Positions 11,357 to 15,111 of a stretch of 64,000 bases of DNA are shown piece by piece. The notes beneath the pieces are model-generated. The model worked only from the letters and a program-made list of their open reading frames with translations. It had not been told where the DNA came from and did not search any database. The translations under genes were made by a program, and so were the position numbers. The DNA comes from Verrucomicrobiia bacterium (lineage in GTDB: Bacteria; Verrucomicrobiota; Verrucomicrobiia; Palsa-1439), in the NCBI GenBank assembly GCA_049515295.1, contig JBEKUF010000001.1:3625-67624 (forward strand), read 5' to 3'. How positions within the stretch are numbered: the first letter of the stretch is position 1; each line of letters begins with the position of its first letter.

Positions 11357-12115
11357 TCAGTACTTGTACACCAGCGAGCTGATCAACAGAATGTCGTTTT
11401 CCTTCTTACCCGATGCTGGTCGGCTGTCGAAGTGGTCGTCGGCCACAACTCGCAAACTGAAGCGGGTGTTGAAGGCAGCTTCCGCACCGACCTCACTGTT
11501 CAGTAGATAGTTATTGAAGTCGTCAACCTGTGGCATGAAATCGACTTCTTCCCAGACTTTCGCTGTTTTGGCTTTGTTTAGCGTGTGCTCGCCGCGTTCG
11601 GAGAAGCGTATCGTCACGTAACTCTCCGTATTGCTGCCCAACTTCTGGTCGACAAACGAGGGGCCAATCTCACCATTCAATTTCGATGCGTCGCTCTTGA
11701 TGAAGTAGTAGCCTGCCGCCGGCCCGACGATGATGCGGTATCGAACTTCCGCAATATCATCGTGGTACCCGTCAATGCGCGCACTCCCATAAAACCGCTC
11801 GGTGAACAGGCGTTTGTAGTCGATAAATCCGTGAATCGCTTCCGTCGACTGGGTTTGATTCGTCTGGCCCCAGTTGTTCAGCCCATACTGGCCATCGGCA
11901 CCCAACTTCAAGTGGTTTTGTTCCCAGATGTTTTCAGCCGTGGCGCTGCCGCTCAACAGGAACGTATTGGCGTTGCCCCGAGCCAACGACAAGCCGATCG
12001 ACCCGTCTCCATGCCATACCGGTGCACCGGACGCGGCGGAGGTTTGCGCCCATGCGCCATTACAGGCGATCAAGAACAGTACTGAAAGAGTAATTGCGAC
12101 GATCCGAGTTTTCAT
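11357..12115 (-). CDS. DUF481-family outer-membrane beta-barrel protein
   Basis: Signal peptide (VLFLIACNGAWAQ). Alternating hydrophobic beta-strand pattern ending …LISSLVYKY (aromatic C-terminus). Start refined to the internal ATG at 12113-12115. Confidence 0.6.
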   Translation of the reverse strand: MKTRIVAITLSVLFLIACNGAWAQTSAASGAPVWHGDGSIGLSLARGNANTFLLSGSATAENIWEQNHLKLGADGQYGLNNWGQTNQTQSTEAIHGFIDYKRLFTERFYGSARIDGYHDDIAEVRYRIIVGPAAGYYFIKSDASKLNGEIGPSFVDQKLGSNTESYVTIRFSERGEHTLNKAKTAKVWEEVDFMPQVDDFNNYLLNSEVGAEAAFNTRFSLRVVADDHFDSRPASGKKENDILLISSLVYKY

Positions 12116-12199
12116 GCGTTCCTTCTCCAGTTCGATTTCTGAATCCCTCACCAAGCGGGAGCAAAAATGCCCTAGAAATGCAGGATCGGTCAAGAGTTT

Positions 12200-13405
12200 T
12201 TAGTGCGCCTGCAGCAGCTCATTTCCAGACGATTCCATGGCTCGGGCGGCATCGGCGGGTGTCAACCGGCCCAGCGCCACCGCGTCGGCGATCTCGAAAA
12301 ATGCCTTCTGGTTGAATTCGTCCCAAAACGCGTAGCCCCACGGATTGTCGAGGTGCGAATACTTCAACGCGTCCATCATCGCCGGCGGAAACTGCGCGGT
12401 GGCGGCAGCCGCTTTCAACGCTGGGATCGCGTCGCGGCTCGTCGCAGCCAGCATCGCGCCTTCCGTCGAATAGAACCGTGCGAACTCCGCAGCCTCTTGT
12501 GGATGTTTCGTTCCGCGCCACACGCAGTTGCCGCCAATGGACAGTCGCGACCAGCGCACCTTGCCTTTCGGCACCGCCGCCACGTCCCATCGGAAATCCG
12601 AGACATGGTCAAATTCCGTCAACATGTACGTGCGGCCCACGAGCAGCGGGATTTTTCCGTCACGAAACAAATTCACGCCGTCGAACGCCTCCACCTCGCC
12701 CATTGCCGCCGTCGTGGGGGCCACTCCTCGCGCGACGAGATCCCGATAGAACTGTAACGCCGCAATTGTTTCCGGCGACTTTATCGTGCACTTGCCGCCG
12801 GCGAACAGGACGCCGCCGAACGATTGCACCAGAAGCAGCGGGCGCGGCAAAACGGTGGCGATCTTGTTTTGGCGCTGTGCCGCTTGTCCCGATCTGAGAG
12901 GGGCAAGACGAGAGCCGACATCGGCGAACTTCTGCCAGTCCCACGAGTCATCCGGCGGCGGCTCACCGCCCTTCTCAAACCAGTCGCGATTGTAGAAGAG
13001 CGCATCGGTGCTGAAATGAAATGGCACCATGTAGAGGACACCGTTGACCCGGCAGGCGTCGATCACCTCCGCATAATACCGGTCGGCCACCGGCGCGAGG
13101 TTCGTCGTCATATCAGCGACCTGACCGCGCTGCGCCAGCGACGGAAGGCGATCCACAATATAGTAAAACAAATCGGGAGCGGTTTTGCCCGCCAGTTGGA
13201 CGTTCAATTTTTGGAACTTGGATGTGTCGTAAATCACCCGCACGTGGATTTGCGGATGAGTGTGTTCAAACTGGGCGATAATCTTCTGATGAAGCGCCTG
13301 CTGCTGCGGCAGCGTCTCAATGGTCTGGTAGGTGATCTCCACCCGATTGTCCGCCGGTCGGGCGCAACTCGCGAGCAGCAGCAGGACGATCAGCAACCAC
13401 CTCAT
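12200..13405 (-). CDS. ABC transporter substrate-binding lipoprotein (family 1, sugar/muropeptide)
   Basis: Lipobox LLLLASCA after MRWLLIV (start at 13403-13405). Extracellular solute-binding fold. Overlaps the upstream murK-murQ stop by 4 nt. Confidence 0.7.
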   Translation of the reverse strand: MRWLLIVLLLLASCARPADNRVEITYQTIETLPQQQALHQKIIAQFEHTHPQIHVRVIYDTSKFQKLNVQLAGKTAPDLFYYIVDRLPSLAQRGQVADMTTNLAPVADRYYAEVIDACRVNGVLYMVPFHFSTDALFYNRDWFEKGGEPPPDDSWDWQKFADVGSRLAPLRSGQAAQRQNKIATVLPRPLLLVQSFGGVLFAGGKCTIKSPETIAALQFYRDLVARGVAPTTAAMGEVEAFDGVNLFRDGKIPLLVGRTYMLTEFDHVSDFRWDVAAVPKGKVRWSRLSIGGNCVWRGTKHPQEAAEFARFYSTEGAMLAATSRDAIPALKAAAATAQFPPAMMDALKYSHLDNPWGYAFWDEFNQKAFFEIADAVALGRLTPADAARAMESSGNELLQAH

Positions 13406-15111
13406 CGCAGGGCCTTTTTCACGTTCCAGCCACAACGAATCAACCGCCGGCGCGCTTCGTCCTCGCTGCCGCCCTGTAGCGCGGCCACGATGCGGCACGC
13501 CCGCGCGCGCAGCTTGGCATTGGTCGGTTTCACGTCCACCATTAGGTTGCTAACGACTTTGCCGAGGCGAATCATCGAGACCGTCGTCAGTGTATTGAGC
13601 ACGATTTTTGTCGCCGTGCCCGCTTTGAGCCGGGTCGAACCGGTGATTGCCTCTGGTCCCACGTGGAACAACAACAGCCTGTGCGTGGTCGACCGTGGCG
13701 GAGAAAAACACAGAAGGAACGTCTCGGCCCCCAATCGTTCCGCCTCGTCCAGCGCGCCCAACACGAACGGCGTCGAACCGCTGGCGGCGATGCCGACGAT
13801 CACGTCGCGCCGGCCAACGCCGCGTGCCCGCACGGCCTCCGCGCCCGCTGCCTGATCGTCCTCCGCACCTTCCACGGCCCGATGGAGCGCTGTCGCGCCC
13901 CCGGCGATGATCGCCTGGACCTTCTCGGGATCGGTGGAGAACGTCGGGGGACATTCGCTCGCGTCCAACACGCCCAACCGACCGCTCGTCCCTGCGCCGA
14001 TATAAAACAATCGCCCGCCCCGTTTGAATGCGCGCACGATGCCGCTGACGGCGCGTTCGATGGCGGGCTTGTTTTTCCGCAACGCGGGAACGACGCGCGC
14101 CTCCTCGCCCAGCATCACGTCGACAAGTTGCGACACGGACCGCTTGTCCAAATCCATCGTGCGTGGGTTGCGGTTCTCGGTAACTGGCACGGATAAGGAA
14201 GCGGTTTGCGGAGTCGATACAGACCGCGCGGACGCAAGGCCGGCCAGTTTCAACGCGCCGATCGCGGACTCGCCCCGCATCGGAATGATCTTCGCTCCCG
14301 GCAACAGGGTGCGGACACGGTTCCCGACGAGGATTGCCAGTTTTCGGTTGTGCCGTAACACGCCGCCGCTGAGCGCGACGCGCGGTTTCTCCAAGCTCAA
14401 TTTCTGCGCGACCGCGTGGCAATCCTGCGCGAGAAACGAAGCCGCCTGCAGCATCAACCCGGCATCCCCCTCGAGCATGTCCGTCGCCAGGGCCGCCACC
14501 GCATCCTTGCTGGCGTTCTGGATCCATCCCACAAGTTCGTCCGGCGAATTCAAACACAGGCGCCGAAGTGCGCGTTGCAAACGATGGCTAACGCGACCGT
14601 GCCGATCAAATTCACGGATCGCGGCTCTCAACCCCGTCAACGCGATCCAGTAGCCGCTGCCATGATCGCCCAACAGGTGCCCCCAGCCGCCCGCTCGCGC
14701 CACCCGCGCGCCGTTGCGACCGACCACACACGACCCGGTGCCGCTCACGATCACAATGCCGGAACCGTGCGGACCGAAGGCCGCCGCCAGAGCCGAATCG
14801 GTGTCACTGCCCACATACGCATCCGCGCCCGGCCAGACGCGCTCCGCCAGTGCGCGGGCCCGGGAACGGTCGGCATCTGTTCGGCAACCGGCGAGGCACA
14901 GGGCCAACGATGTGGGACGGGATGCGAGACCGCGTTTGATCCCGCGGAGCCGCTGCCGGGCCTCGGCGTCCGACAGAAGTTTGAGGTTGAAGGGACCGGA
15001 TTCGAGTCGAGAGAGGATTCGACCGTGTCGATCGGCCAGAAGCGCAACGGTTCGCGTGCCGCCGCCCTCGATGCCGAGAAAATATGCGTCAGGTGTGGGT
15101 TCCCCGCCCAT
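13402..15111 (-). CDS. murQ: fusion protein: BadF/BcrA-type sugar kinase (MurNAc/GlcNAc kinase-like) plus N-acetylmuramic acid 6-phosphate etherase
   Basis: N-terminal 300 aa carry [11 protein letters not shown]…GSGYWIA (ASKHA/BadF kinase). C-terminal 300 aa carry SIS-domain MurQ motifs (…[45 protein letters not shown]…). Single uninterrupted ORF. Confidence 0.75.
   Translation of the reverse strand: [569 protein letters not shown]

What the first reader, a model, noticed from the sequence alone, without database searches (positions are those of the whole stretch)
11357..15111. MurNAc/GlcNAc kinase fused to MurNAc-6-P etherase, translationally coupled to an ABC binding lipoprotein and a DUF481 outer-membrane barrel
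A single 569-aa ORF fuses a BadF/BcrA-type sugar kinase to a complete MurQ etherase. These two consecutive steps of anhydro-MurNAc/MurNAc recycling are normally separate proteins. Its stop overlaps (ATGA) the start of a family-1 solute-binding lipoprotein, which is followed by a DUF481 outer-membrane protein. This suggests a dedicated muropeptide/MurNAc salvage unit whose binding protein is orphaned from its permeases. The two sugar permeases in the window lie 8 kb away at 2309-4256.
Basis: partly seen in the sequence, partly recalled or inferred. Interest (0 to 1): 0.5.

Follow-up and report, generated by a model that had tools for sequence, protein, structure and literature searches.

The report
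Fused MurNAc kinase–etherase with orphan binding protein
A soil-type Verrucomicrobia genome joins two consecutive enzymes for breaking down the cell-wall sugar MurNAc into one protein and couples that gene to a sugar-binding lipoprotein; the fusion is genuine but common in this phylum, so it is a modest variant of a known pathway.

Summary
On the minus strand, one 569-aa ORF (15111→13402) carries an N-terminal BadF/BcrA-type sugar kinase and a C-terminal MurQ etherase. The kinase's best solved relative is the MurNAc/GlcNAc kinase MurK. The etherase scores above the curated cut-offs. Its stop overlaps (ATGA) the start of a family-1 solute-binding lipoprotein, and a DUF481 outer-membrane barrel follows.

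The fusion is not a frameshift:
- More than 100 full-length relatives at 63–100% identity have the same architecture.
- Among the 150 best 50%-identity cluster representatives, 113 are kinase→MurQ fusions and 18 are MurQ→kinase fusions.
- Single-ORF fusions occur across Verrucomicrobiota. In Bacillota, Treponema and Rhizobium the same two genes are adjacent but separate.

The fusion therefore joins a known murK–murQ gene pair. It is widespread in databases, named only "etherase", and undescribed in the papers searched.

The binding protein is clade-specific. It stays overlapped with the fusion down to 42% identity and never has permeases beside it. Its ligand is unproven. DUF481 is linked only in the closest relatives.

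The unit is wider than reported. It probably lies inside a sigma-54-driven operon of FadL-like porin, REC-histidine kinase, fusion, binding protein and DUF481. Interest is low to moderate.

The parts
13402..15111 (-). Single 569-aa ORF: MurK-like kinase fused to MurQ etherase
   Evidence: ORF and sequence. Pfam and NCBIfam matches. A 100%-identical protein sits in an independent ENA assembly, and more than 100 full-length relatives at 63-100% identity exist.
14245..15078 (-). Kinase domain (aa 12-289), BcrAD_BadFG ASKHA sugar-kinase branch
   Evidence: PF01869 5.7e-19. Best solved relative is MurNAc/GlcNAc kinase 8zo3, 4.2e-31, aligned over residues 10-290 against 3-301. Across fusions down to 34% identity, G17 (E-G-G-G-T motif), D103, G124-T125-G126 and G142/G144/G148/D149/G151 are invariant. 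Model pLDDT is about 86-93.
13408..14205 (-). MurQ etherase domain (aa 303-568), lacking the last ~30 residues of stand-alone MurQ
   Evidence: NF003915 343.8 bits, TIGR00274 303.8 bits. H. influenzae MurQ 1nri/4lzj at about 7e-69, with the motifs [20 protein letters not shown] and VEGAEDD conserved and invariant across the family.
13402..13405 (-). ATGA stop/start overlap between the fusion and the binding-protein gene
   Evidence: Read directly from the sequence. The same 4-nt overlap occurs in L001 and L003 gene calls. The genes also overlap in L006 and L007.
12200..13405 (-). Family-1 (CUT1) solute-binding lipoprotein, 401 aa
   Evidence: PF13416 1.6e-25 and PF01547 5.4e-21. Lipobox Cys14 is invariant in 11 relatives. 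AlphaFold model pLDDT 88.7. Fold matches Lmo0181 (TM 0.81), AbnE and UspC. The family is narrow, with 127 hits.
11357..12115 (-). DUF481 outer-membrane beta-barrel, 252 aa
   Evidence: PF04338 1.4e-32. Signal peptide ending AWA|Q and C-terminal ...VYKY; orthologues follow the binding protein in L001 and L003. The family is listed as putative porin family TCDB 1.B.75 (PMC4827864).
15135..16361 (-). Soluble REC-HisKA-HATPase hybrid histidine kinase, ending 23 nt before the fusion ATG
   Evidence: Pfam. The same position and spacing are kept in L001, L003, L004 and L005.
16378..17610 (-). FadL/Toluene_X-family outer-membrane channel, probably the first gene of the transcription unit
   Evidence: PF03349 2.6e-59. 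ATG at 17610. Conserved upstream of the REC-HK and fusion genes in L001, L003, L004 and L005.
17675..17690 (-). Sigma-54 -24/-12 promoter-like element TGGCATACGCATTGCT
   Evidence: One mismatch to TGGCAC-N5-TTGCW. It lies in the spacer between the NtrC-type activator gene and the FadL gene. The element is kept in L001, L003 and L004/L005 while the rest of the spacer diverges. The window-wide match count is not above chance, so the support comes from position and conservation.
17837..19369 (-). NtrC-type sigma-54 activator (REC-AAA+-HTH_8), candidate regulator of the unit
   Evidence: Pfam Sigma54_activat 2e-72. Syntenic in L001, L003 and L004.
2309..4256 (-). Two CUT1 ABC permease genes (3336-4256, 2309-3319) without binding protein or ATPase; candidate but unproven partners of the binding protein
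   Evidence: BPD_transp_1 matches. No room for a binding-protein gene nearby. Homologues at about 60% identity in Omnitrophica and Planctomycetota also lack a binding protein.

Best explanation
The 569-aa protein is a bifunctional cytoplasmic enzyme. Its N-terminal MurK-type ASKHA kinase phosphorylates free (reducing) MurNAc, and possibly GlcNAc, at O6 using ATP. Its C-terminal MurQ domain then cleaves the D-lactyl ether of MurNAc-6-P to give GlcNAc-6-P and D-lactate. Fusing the two fixes their stoichiometry and places both active sites on one polypeptide.

A kinase is needed because uptake here is not through a phosphorylating PTS. The translationally coupled lipoprotein is the periplasmic receptor of a CUT1 ABC importer that brings in the substrate: MurNAc or a MurNAc-containing fragment from cell-wall debris. 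Its membrane and ATPase subunits are encoded elsewhere, and the permease pair at 2309-4256 is the local candidate. The DUF481 barrel, and possibly the FadL-like barrel, are outer-membrane entry routes.

The genes are probably transcribed as part of one sigma-54-dependent operon (FadL-like, REC-HK, fusion, binding protein, DUF481) under the neighbouring NtrC-type regulator.

Shown here: domain identities, conserved catalytic motifs, reality and age of the fusion, conserved overlap with the binding-protein gene, conserved promoter element.

Inferred: substrate of the kinase, ligand of the binding protein, partner permeases, roles of the two barrels, operon structure.
For: - Domain assignment and curated cut-offs.
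- The best solved relative of the N-domain is MurNAc/GlcNAc kinase MurK 8zo3, aligned over its full length.
- MurQ motifs are identical to those of H. influenzae MurQ. Kinase and etherase motifs are invariant across fusions down to 34% identity.
- Fusion relatives: more than 100 at 63-100% identity. Of the top 150 cluster representatives, 113 are kinase-MurQ and 18 are MurQ-kinase.
- Single ORFs occur across Verrucomicrobiota and in a Pirellulaceae genome.
- The same kinase and murQ are adjacent separate genes in Bacillota, Treponema, Rhizobium and Mesorhizobium. In Cytobacillus and Paenibacillus they sit with a MurR-type regulator, a family-1 binding protein and two CUT1 permeases. An ABC importer feeding MurK and MurQ is therefore a recurring design.
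- The characterised precedent of a non-PTS transporter plus MurK plus MurQ is the T. forsythia murTKQ operon (PMC5790795).
- The fusion and binding-protein genes overlap in the window, L001, L003, L006 and L007, down to 42% binding-protein identity.
- The binding protein is an intact, confidently modelled CUT1 fold with an invariant lipobox cysteine.
- The sigma-54 element is conserved upstream of the FadL gene, and the gaps downstream are 16 nt, 23 nt and an overlap.
Against: - Nothing here shows substrate specificity. The MurNAc-specific patch described for T. forsythia MurK could not be mapped, because that protein is not detectably similar by sequence (absent from the hits). The closest solved kinase also phosphorylates GlcNAc.
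- The binding protein resembles oligosaccharide binders in general (AbnE, Lmo0181, UspC). It is not specifically related to the binding proteins in the Bacillota murK-murQ operons.
- A sister lineage keeps the fusion without the binding protein or DUF481. More distant Verrucomicrobiota fusions have no transport neighbour at all.
- The flanking genes on both sides (TrpRS, ScpAB, PheA, ligA) are conserved lineage synteny, so adjacency is weak functional evidence.
- The permease family is much more widespread than the binding-protein family, so any pairing cannot be exclusive.
- The MurQ domain lacks the C-terminal ~30 residues of characterised enzymes.
- The promoter and terminator scans gave nothing above shuffles.
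Confidence: 0.6

Rival explanations
1. The enzyme part is as described, but the binding protein imports an unrelated sugar or oligosaccharide. Its overlap with the fusion gene would then be a lineage-specific operon accident rather than a dedicated MurNAc route, and DUF481 and FadL would be general porins.
For: The nearest solved relatives of the binding protein bind arabino-oligosaccharides, cycloalternan and amino sugars, with no specific signal. It has no specific similarity to the binding proteins of Bacillota murK-murQ operons. The fusion occurs without the binding protein in L004/L005 and in all distant Verrucomicrobiota loci. The surrounding genes are housekeeping synteny.
Against: The stop/start overlap is kept from 100% down to 42% binding-protein identity in otherwise rearranged neighbourhoods (L006 and L007). 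All five binding-protein orthologue loci examined (at 42% identity or more) sit next to the fusion. A cytoplasmic MurNAc kinase implies a non-PTS import route.
Confidence: 0.3
2. The N-terminal domain is mainly a GlcNAc (or broad hexose) kinase. The fusion would then join two branches of amino-sugar catabolism rather than two consecutive steps, with MurNAc-6-P reaching MurQ by another route such as AnmK.
For: The closest solved kinase, 8zo3, is named MurNAc/GlcNAc kinase. The next hits are a broad-specificity Sulfolobus hexokinase and human GlcNAc kinase. There is a weak match to a NagK model.
Against: The NagK equivalog score of 69.9 is far below its cut-off of 370. Repeated independent linkage of this kinase type to murQ argues that the kinase product is the etherase substrate: fusion in both orders, and adjacent genes in several phyla. 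The MurK-then-MurQ order is established in T. forsythia (PMC5790795).
Confidence: 0.15
3. The binding lipoprotein is a periplasmic sensor component feeding the neighbouring two-component/sigma-54 system rather than a transport receptor.
For: It has no adjacent permease or ATPase in any locus. Histidine kinases and a sigma-54 activator lie immediately upstream.
Against: The adjacent hybrid kinase has only REC, HisKA and HATPase domains and no periplasmic domain hit. In L006 and L007 the fusion and binding protein occur without these regulators. CUT1 permease pairs with no binding protein beside them exist in the same genome.
Confidence: 0.05
4. The fusion is an assembly or frameshift artefact joining two genes.
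For: In other phyla the two genes are adjacent, sometimes separated by only one stop codon in the same frame (L031, L034, L044, L053).
Against: The reading frame is continuous, and identical and related full-length proteins come from many independent assemblies. A conserved domain order and linker appear in 113 cluster representatives. Single ORFs are present in 17 of the 32 genome loci checked, including the complete chromosome record OZ260079.1 (L017).
Confidence: 0.01

Closest known systems
Tannerella forsythia murTKQ operon (MurT transporter, MurK kinase, MurQ etherase)
   Same: Same logic: PTS-independent uptake of MurNAc, cytoplasmic phosphorylation by a PF01869-family kinase, then ether cleavage by MurQ (PMC5790795; PMC10465942).
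   Different: Here kinase and etherase are one polypeptide. The uptake component is an ABC binding lipoprotein, not a sodium symporter. The T. forsythia kinase is too divergent to appear among the sequence hits.
Clostridium acetobutylicum-type MurK (PDB 8zo3, MurNAc/GlcNAc kinase)
   Same: Best solved relative of aa 10-290, aligned end to end, with shared GTGS and GGWGHxxGDxGSGY motifs.
   Different: MurK is a stand-alone 306-aa protein. Sequence similarity is only moderate (111 bits). The first motif here reads E-G-G-G-T rather than D-G-G-G-S.
MurQ (E. coli / H. influenzae HI0754, PDB 1nri, 4lzj, 4s12)
   Same: aa 303-568 align over about 265 residues with the phosphosugar-binding and acidic catalytic motifs conserved, and the scores pass the curated cut-offs.
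   Different: It is fused behind a kinase and lacks the last ~30 residues of the lid region. In enterobacteria MurQ is fed by the PTS MurP or by AnmK, not by MurK.
Bacillota murR - binding protein - permease - permease - murK - murQ clusters (Cytobacillus citreus L031, Paenibacillus L044)
   Same: A family-1 binding protein and CUT1 permeases are encoded with the same kinase and etherase.
   Different: All genes are separate and contiguous, and a MurR/RpiR regulator is present. The binding proteins are not specifically related to the one here. These clusters are uncharacterised as far as I could find.
M. tuberculosis UspC (amino-sugar-binding lipoprotein of the UspABC importer; PDB 5k2x/5k2y)
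   Same: A CUT1 binding lipoprotein among the top sequence and fold matches (2.6e-14; TM about 0.72-0.76).
   Different: Only about 23-24% identical. It is encoded with its permeases. Its similarity is no better than that of binders of unrelated oligosaccharides.

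Membership tests
[quoted passage not shown] | Sequence scores above the curated family cut-offs | tested here: met
   NF003915 343.8 against 168, NF009222 310.2 against 255, TIGR00274 303.8 against 302 (only just).
[quoted passage not shown] | SIS phosphosugar-binding loop and the two acidic catalytic positions. These are Glu83 and Glu114 in E. coli numbering; the residue roles come from my own knowledge of Hadi et al. 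2008. | tested here: met
   [20 protein letters not shown] and VEGAEDD align identically with H. influenzae MurQ. E386, E414, E417 and D418 are invariant in 18 diverse fusions.
[quoted passage not shown] | Full-length architecture including the C-terminal lid helices | tested here: not met
   The match ends at profile position 268/300 and at residue 277/306 of HI0754. Close relatives end at the same place, while distant fusions keep the tail.
[quoted passage not shown] | Converts MurNAc-6-P to GlcNAc-6-P and D-lactate | not testable with these tools
   Needs an enzyme assay.
MurK-type MurNAc(/GlcNAc) kinase, BcrAD_BadFG branch of ASKHA | PF01869 domain, with sugar kinases rather than Fe-S activators as nearest solved relatives | tested here: met
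   PF01869 69.1 bits against 31.5. PDB hits are MurK 8zo3 (4e-31), S. tokodaii hexokinase, human NAGK and a probable NagK. No reductase or dehydratase activator appears at E<=1e-3.
MurK-type MurNAc(/GlcNAc) kinase, BcrAD_BadFG branch of ASKHA | ASKHA phosphate-1 motif, catalytic Asp, and phosphate-2 GTGS motif | tested here: met
   I-E-G-G-G-T (aa 14-19; Glu in place of Asp, as in human NAGK by my recollection), D103, and G124-T125-G126-S127. G17, D103, G124, T125 and G126 are invariant across the family.
MurK-type MurNAc(/GlcNAc) kinase, BcrAD_BadFG branch of ASKHA | Space for the lactyl ether (small residues at the S133-P134-L135 patch, no Asn before the catalytic Asp, as in T. forsythia MurK) | tested here: inconclusive
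   The features are described in PMC10465942. T. forsythia MurK is not alignable by sequence here (absent). The residue before D103 is Ser in the window and varies among relatives: Asn, Thr, His, Glu and Asp also occur.
MurK-type MurNAc(/GlcNAc) kinase, BcrAD_BadFG branch of ASKHA | Genetic linkage to murQ | tested here: met
   Fused here. Homologous kinases are adjacent to murQ in Bacillota, Treponema, Rhizobium and others.
NagK (Shewanella-type GlcNAc kinase, NF046058) | Score above the equivalog cut-off | tested here: not met
   69.9 bits against a cut-off of 370.
AnmK, anhydro-MurNAc kinase | Match to the AnmK family | tested here: not met
   No AnmK family appears among the Pfam or NCBIfam hits at E<=0.01, and no AnmK structure appears among the PDB hits.
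CUT1 (family 1) ABC solute-binding protein | SBP_bac_1/SBP_bac_8 domain, two-lobe fold, and an export signal | tested here: met
   Pfam. Model pLDDT 88.7 with TM 0.76-0.81 to solved CUT1 binders. Lipobox L-A-S-C with an invariant Cys.
CUT1 (family 1) ABC solute-binding protein | Encoded with its two permeases (and often an ATPase) | tested here: not met
   No permease lies next to the binding protein in the window, L001, L003, L006 or L007. The nearest permease pair is 8 kb away.
DUF481 (PF04338; TCDB 1.B.75 putative outer-membrane porin) | Full-length PF04338 match, signal peptide, and C-terminal aromatic residue | tested here: met
   113.9 bits over profile positions 2-210/210. N-terminal signal with AWA|Q and C-terminal YKY.
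MurNAc utilisation cluster of the murTKQ / murR-murP-murQ kind | Transporter, kinase (or PTS), etherase and a MurR/RpiR regulator encoded together | tested here: inconclusive
   Kinase and etherase are present. Only the binding subunit of a transporter is present. No RpiR/MurR protein was found among the large ORFs scanned across the window; the neighbours are sigma-54 two-component genes instead.

The most novel reading that the evidence does not exclude
The clade-specific lipoprotein would be the receptor of an as yet undescribed ABC-type importer for MurNAc or MurNAc-containing cell-wall fragments in a Gram-negative phylum. Its membrane part would be the PVC-wide, always binding-protein-less CUT1 permease pair. 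The whole sigma-54 operon (FadL-like barrel, REC-HK, MurK-MurQ, binding protein, DUF481 barrel) would be a regulated module for harvesting bacterial necromass amino sugars, which would give DUF481 its first physiological role.
Probability: 0.2. Interest if true: 0.45.

Novelty: new variant of a known kind. Interest (0 to 1): 0.27.

Why it matters
If the biochemistry holds, Verrucomicrobiota carry a one-protein route from free MurNAc to GlcNAc-6-P. These bacteria are abundant soil and freshwater degraders. Current annotation calls the protein only 'etherase', which hides the kinase step, so pathway reconstructions for this phylum would wrongly score MurNAc phosphorylation as missing.

The fusion is also clean Rosetta-stone evidence that this BadF-type kinase branch works on the MurQ substrate. 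The tightly coupled binding lipoprotein is a concrete, testable candidate for an ABC-type MurNAc receptor, which I could not find described.

None of this changes the known chemistry of peptidoglycan sugar catabolism.

Tried and rejected
- The sigma-70 promoter and intrinsic terminator scan over 10200-19600 found no more sites than shuffles, so it could not define operon ends.
- Ligand inference for the binding protein from solved structures, by sequence and by fold, gave only generic CUT1 oligosaccharide binders.
- I tested whether the binding protein is specifically related to the binding proteins of the Bacillota murK-murQ clusters. It is not (24% and 20% identity over partial alignments).
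- I tried to map the T. forsythia MurK specificity residues onto this kinase. That protein is too divergent to align by sequence.
- A neighbourhood comparison across 23 fusion loci looked for recurrent peptidoglycan-recycling or transport partners. Beyond the close clade, only ligA, HtrA-like proteases and FadL-like genes recur, which is lineage synteny.
- I looked up contexts of permease homologues hoping to find an adjacent binding protein that would identify the partner. None has one.
- Literature searches for a described kinase-etherase fusion found nothing. The Jaeger & Mayer review could not be read.
- The full-length AlphaFold model gave no defined inter-domain arrangement (pTM 0.53, linker disordered), so I ran no fold search on it.
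- The rest of the window holds no other recognisable peptidoglycan-recycling genes.

Full report
**What is in the sequence**

- The first runs from ATG 15111 to the stop at 13402 (569 aa).
- The second starts at ATG 13405. Its A-T-G-A shares three bases with that stop codon, and it ends at 12200 (401 aa). Its N-terminus, MRWLLIVLLLLASC, carries a lipobox.
- The third begins 84 nt later at ATG 12115, behind a GGAG/AAGGA-like ribosome-binding stretch, and ends at 11357 (252 aa).

Pfam and NCBIfam assignments:
- Residues 12-289 of the first protein match BcrAD_BadFG (PF01869, 69.1 bits against a cut-off of 31.5).
- Residues 303-568 match MurQ. All three MurQ models score above their curated cut-offs, although TIGR00274 passes only narrowly (303.8 against 302).
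- The second protein is a family-1 solute-binding protein.
- The third is a full-length DUF481.

**Which kind of ASKHA domain**

Against all solved structures, the best relative of residues 10-290 is the MurNAc/GlcNAc kinase MurK (8zo3, 4.2e-31, aligned end to end). Next come a Sulfolobus hexokinase, human GlcNAc kinase and a probable bacterial NagK. No activator protein appears.

The Shewanella-type NagK model scores far below its cut-off (69.9 against 370), and no anhydro-MurNAc kinase family matches. The domain is therefore a sugar kinase of the MurK/NagK branch. It is not the enzyme type that handles anhydro-MurNAc, so the pair suits reducing MurNAc rather than the lytic-transglycosylase product.

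Across 18 fusions down to 34% identity, the following are invariant:
- G17 of the glycine-rich first phosphate motif (E-G-G-G-T in the window);
- the catalytic Asp (D103);
- G124, T125 and G126 of the GTGS motif;
- G142, G144, G148, D149 and G151 of the [14 protein letters not shown] block.

The features reported to make room for the lactyl ether in T. forsythia MurK (PMC10465942) could not be mapped. That kinase is too divergent to align by sequence. Substrate specificity therefore rests on linkage, not on residues.

**The etherase half**

Residues 303-568 align with H. influenzae and other MurQ structures at about 1e-68. The motifs [20 protein letters not shown] and VEGAEDD are conserved and invariant across the family. 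From my own knowledge of the E. coli enzyme, these motifs contain the two catalytic glutamates.

Close relatives end at the same WNVKKAL-type sequence, while the most distant fusions keep the tail. This is a family trait, not a truncation error.

**Is the fusion real, and how unusual is it?**

It is real.
- A 100%-identical protein exists in an independent ENA assembly.
- The 120 best relatives (63-100% identity) all carry both domains, and most are about 570 aa.
- In a library of one representative per 50%-identity cluster, the best 150 hits comprise 113 kinase→MurQ fusions, 18 MurQ→kinase fusions and 19 single-domain, fragmentary or unclassified entries.

A scan of species-representative genomes found uninterrupted single ORFs in:
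- Phragmitibacter, Akkermansiaceae, Terrimicrobiaceae, Udaeobacter, Chthoniobacterales and other Verrucomicrobiota;
- one Bryobacteraceae bin;
- a Pirellulaceae genome, in the reverse domain order.

In Cytobacillus, Paenibacillus, Oscillospiraceae, Treponema, Rhizobium, Mesorhizobium, Poribacteria and Acidobacteriota the same two genes are adjacent but separate. In some they are divided by a single in-frame stop.

The fusion is thus a Rosetta-stone join of a widespread murK-murQ gene pair. It is the normal state in Verrucomicrobiota and has arisen in both orders. [quoted passage not shown] I found no paper in the held library that describes the fusion.

An AlphaFold model gives a confident kinase domain, a disordered linker (residues 294-315) and no fixed inter-domain geometry.

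**The binding protein**

The binding-protein family is narrow. Only 127 hits were found: about 110 at 53% identity or more, then one at 42%, then generic relatives at 30% or less.

In every locus I could read, the fusion gene comes immediately before the orthologue and overlaps it. These loci are the window, L001 (87%), L003 (77%), L006 (56%) and L007 (42%). In L006 and L007 the rest of the neighbourhood is entirely different, so the fusion plus binding-protein pair is the conserved core.

No locus has a permease or ATPase beside it. The lipobox cysteine is invariant. The model is confident (pLDDT 88.7) and superposes on CUT1 binders at TM about 0.8. The top matches are Lmo0181, AbnE, UspC and others, whose ligands are too varied to predict one here.

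The binding protein is not specifically related to the binding proteins in the Bacillota murR-SBP-permease-permease-murK-murQ clusters. Those clusters do show that a CUT1 importer feeding MurK and MurQ is a recurring design. The characterised T. forsythia murTKQ operon shows the general logic that non-PTS uptake requires a kinase (PMC5790795).

**DUF481 and the limits of the unit**

DUF481 follows the binding protein only in the closest relatives, L001 and L003. It is absent from L006 and L007.

A sister lineage with a 65%-identical fusion (L004/L005) has leucine-rich-repeat proteins in place of both the binding protein and DUF481.

DUF481 has a cleavable signal peptide (AWA|Q; the cysteine is not conserved) and a C-terminal YKY, as expected of an outer-membrane barrel. 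The family is only a putative porin (PMC4827864). Its role here is a guess.

**The surroundings**

The fusion ATG lies 23 nt behind a soluble REC-HisKA-HATPase kinase gene. That gene lies 16 nt behind a FadL/Toluene_X outer-membrane channel gene. This order is kept in L001, L003, L004 and L005.

The spacer between the upstream NtrC-type sigma-54 activator gene and the FadL gene holds TGGCATACGCATTGCT (17690-17675), one mismatch from the -24/-12 consensus. The window-wide count of such matches is no higher than chance. However, the element recurs at the same place in L001, L003 and L004/L005 while the rest of the spacer diverges.

I infer one sigma-54-dependent transcript covering the FadL-like gene, REC-HK, fusion, binding protein and DUF481, possibly running on to trpS, which starts 67 nt further. 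The sigma-70 and terminator scans were uninformative. The finding's coordinates therefore cover only the distal part of a larger unit.

The further flanks are the same in relatives and reflect lineage synteny. They include TrpRS, ScpA/B, PheA, an aminotransferase, a ketoacyl synthase, histidine kinases and ligA. In more distant Verrucomicrobiota the fusion sits next to ligA and HtrA-like proteases, with no common transport partner.

**The permeases 8 kb away**

The two BPD_transp_1 genes at 3336-4256 and 2309-3319 have no binding protein or ATPase beside them. Their family is unusually conserved, at about 60% identity in Omnitrophica, Planctomycetota and other lineages. In the three distant loci I read, it is likewise alone among housekeeping genes.

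But the permease family is far more widespread than the binding-protein family, so any pairing cannot be exclusive. The pairing remains untested.

**Mechanism and confidence**

Most likely (about 0.8 for this core), the protein phosphorylates free MurNAc and cleaves MurNAc-6-P to GlcNAc-6-P and D-lactate.

Less certain (about 0.4-0.5) is that the coupled lipoprotein delivers MurNAc or a MurNAc-containing fragment to a CUT1 importer whose other parts are encoded elsewhere.

Speculative are the idea that the DUF481 and FadL-like barrels provide outer-membrane passage, and the idea that an NtrC-type system controls the unit.

The main rival is that the binding protein imports something unrelated. 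A smaller rival is that the kinase is chiefly a GlcNAc kinase. The frameshift explanation is excluded for practical purposes.

**Verdict**

This is a sound observation of a real, conserved fusion of two known consecutive enzymes, and its interpretation is largely right. The fusion is common in its phylum and in databases. It adds no new chemistry, and the 'dedicated salvage unit' is only partly borne out.

The clade-specific binding protein and the sigma-54 operon context are the parts worth an experiment. Novelty: a new variant of a known kind. Interest: low to moderate.

Noticed in passing
window 17675-17690 (-), spacer 17611-17836: A sigma-54 -24/-12 element, TGGCATACGCATTGCT, lies between the NtrC-type activator gene and the FadL-like gene. 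It is conserved in L001, L003 and L004/L005 while the rest of the spacer diverges. This implies that the FadL-like, REC-HK, fusion, binding-protein and DUF481 genes form one sigma-54 operon.
   Followed up: partly
window 2309-4256 (-); L089 7001-9095, L090 7001-8785, L091 7001-9506: A CUT1 ABC permease pair is conserved at about 60% identity across Verrucomicrobiota, Omnitrophica and Planctomycetota. In every locus read it has no binding-protein or ATPase gene beside it and sits among housekeeping genes. In L089 and L091 a 223-229 aa protein with no Pfam hit follows it. Its substrate and partners are unknown.
   Followed up: partly
L065 5983-7899 and 18 cluster representatives (e.g. P0298, P0309, P0311): The same two domains also occur fused in the opposite order (MurQ then kinase), for example in a Pirellulaceae genome. 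The fusion has therefore arisen at least twice.
   Followed up: partly
L031 685-7935 (Cytobacillus citreus); L044 1574-7911 (Paenibacillus sp.): These Bacillota clusters combine a MurR/RpiR regulator, a family-1 binding protein, two CUT1 permeases, murK and murQ. L031 also has a beta-lactamase-family serine hydrolase. They look like uncharacterised ABC-type MurNAc utilisation operons.
   Followed up: partly
window 13402-13500 (C-terminus of the fusion): The MurQ domain of this clade lacks the last ~30 residues (lid helices) present in stand-alone MurQ and in the most distant fusions. The consequence for dimerisation or activity is unknown.
   Followed up: partly
L012, L015, L016, L019, L021, L022 (about 3560-5900 and 8270-10500): In more distant Verrucomicrobiota the fusion gene lies divergently next to ligA and near HtrA-like PDZ proteases. 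ligA is also in this window at 26007-28484, so part of this gene order is ancient within the phylum.
   Followed up: partly
window 21736-23133 (-), 41580-42932 (+), 60648-61925 (+): Three separate beta-ketoacyl synthase genes lie within 64 kb. The first is wedged between two GAF-type histidine kinase genes.
   Followed up: no
window 48485-53533 (-) and 45994-48474 (-): A 1682-aa ORF is followed by an 826-aa ORF. The 826-aa ORF has essentially no Pfam match, and the 1682-aa ORF was not scanned.
   Followed up: no
window 1753-2016 (-): An 87-aa secreted protein directly downstream of the permease pair is extremely rich in Tyr, Gly, Pro and Ala (…YYGPAYYPAYGYYCAPPAYYYGRPAYRYYCAPRGYYYYRGGGWYYR).
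   Followed up: no
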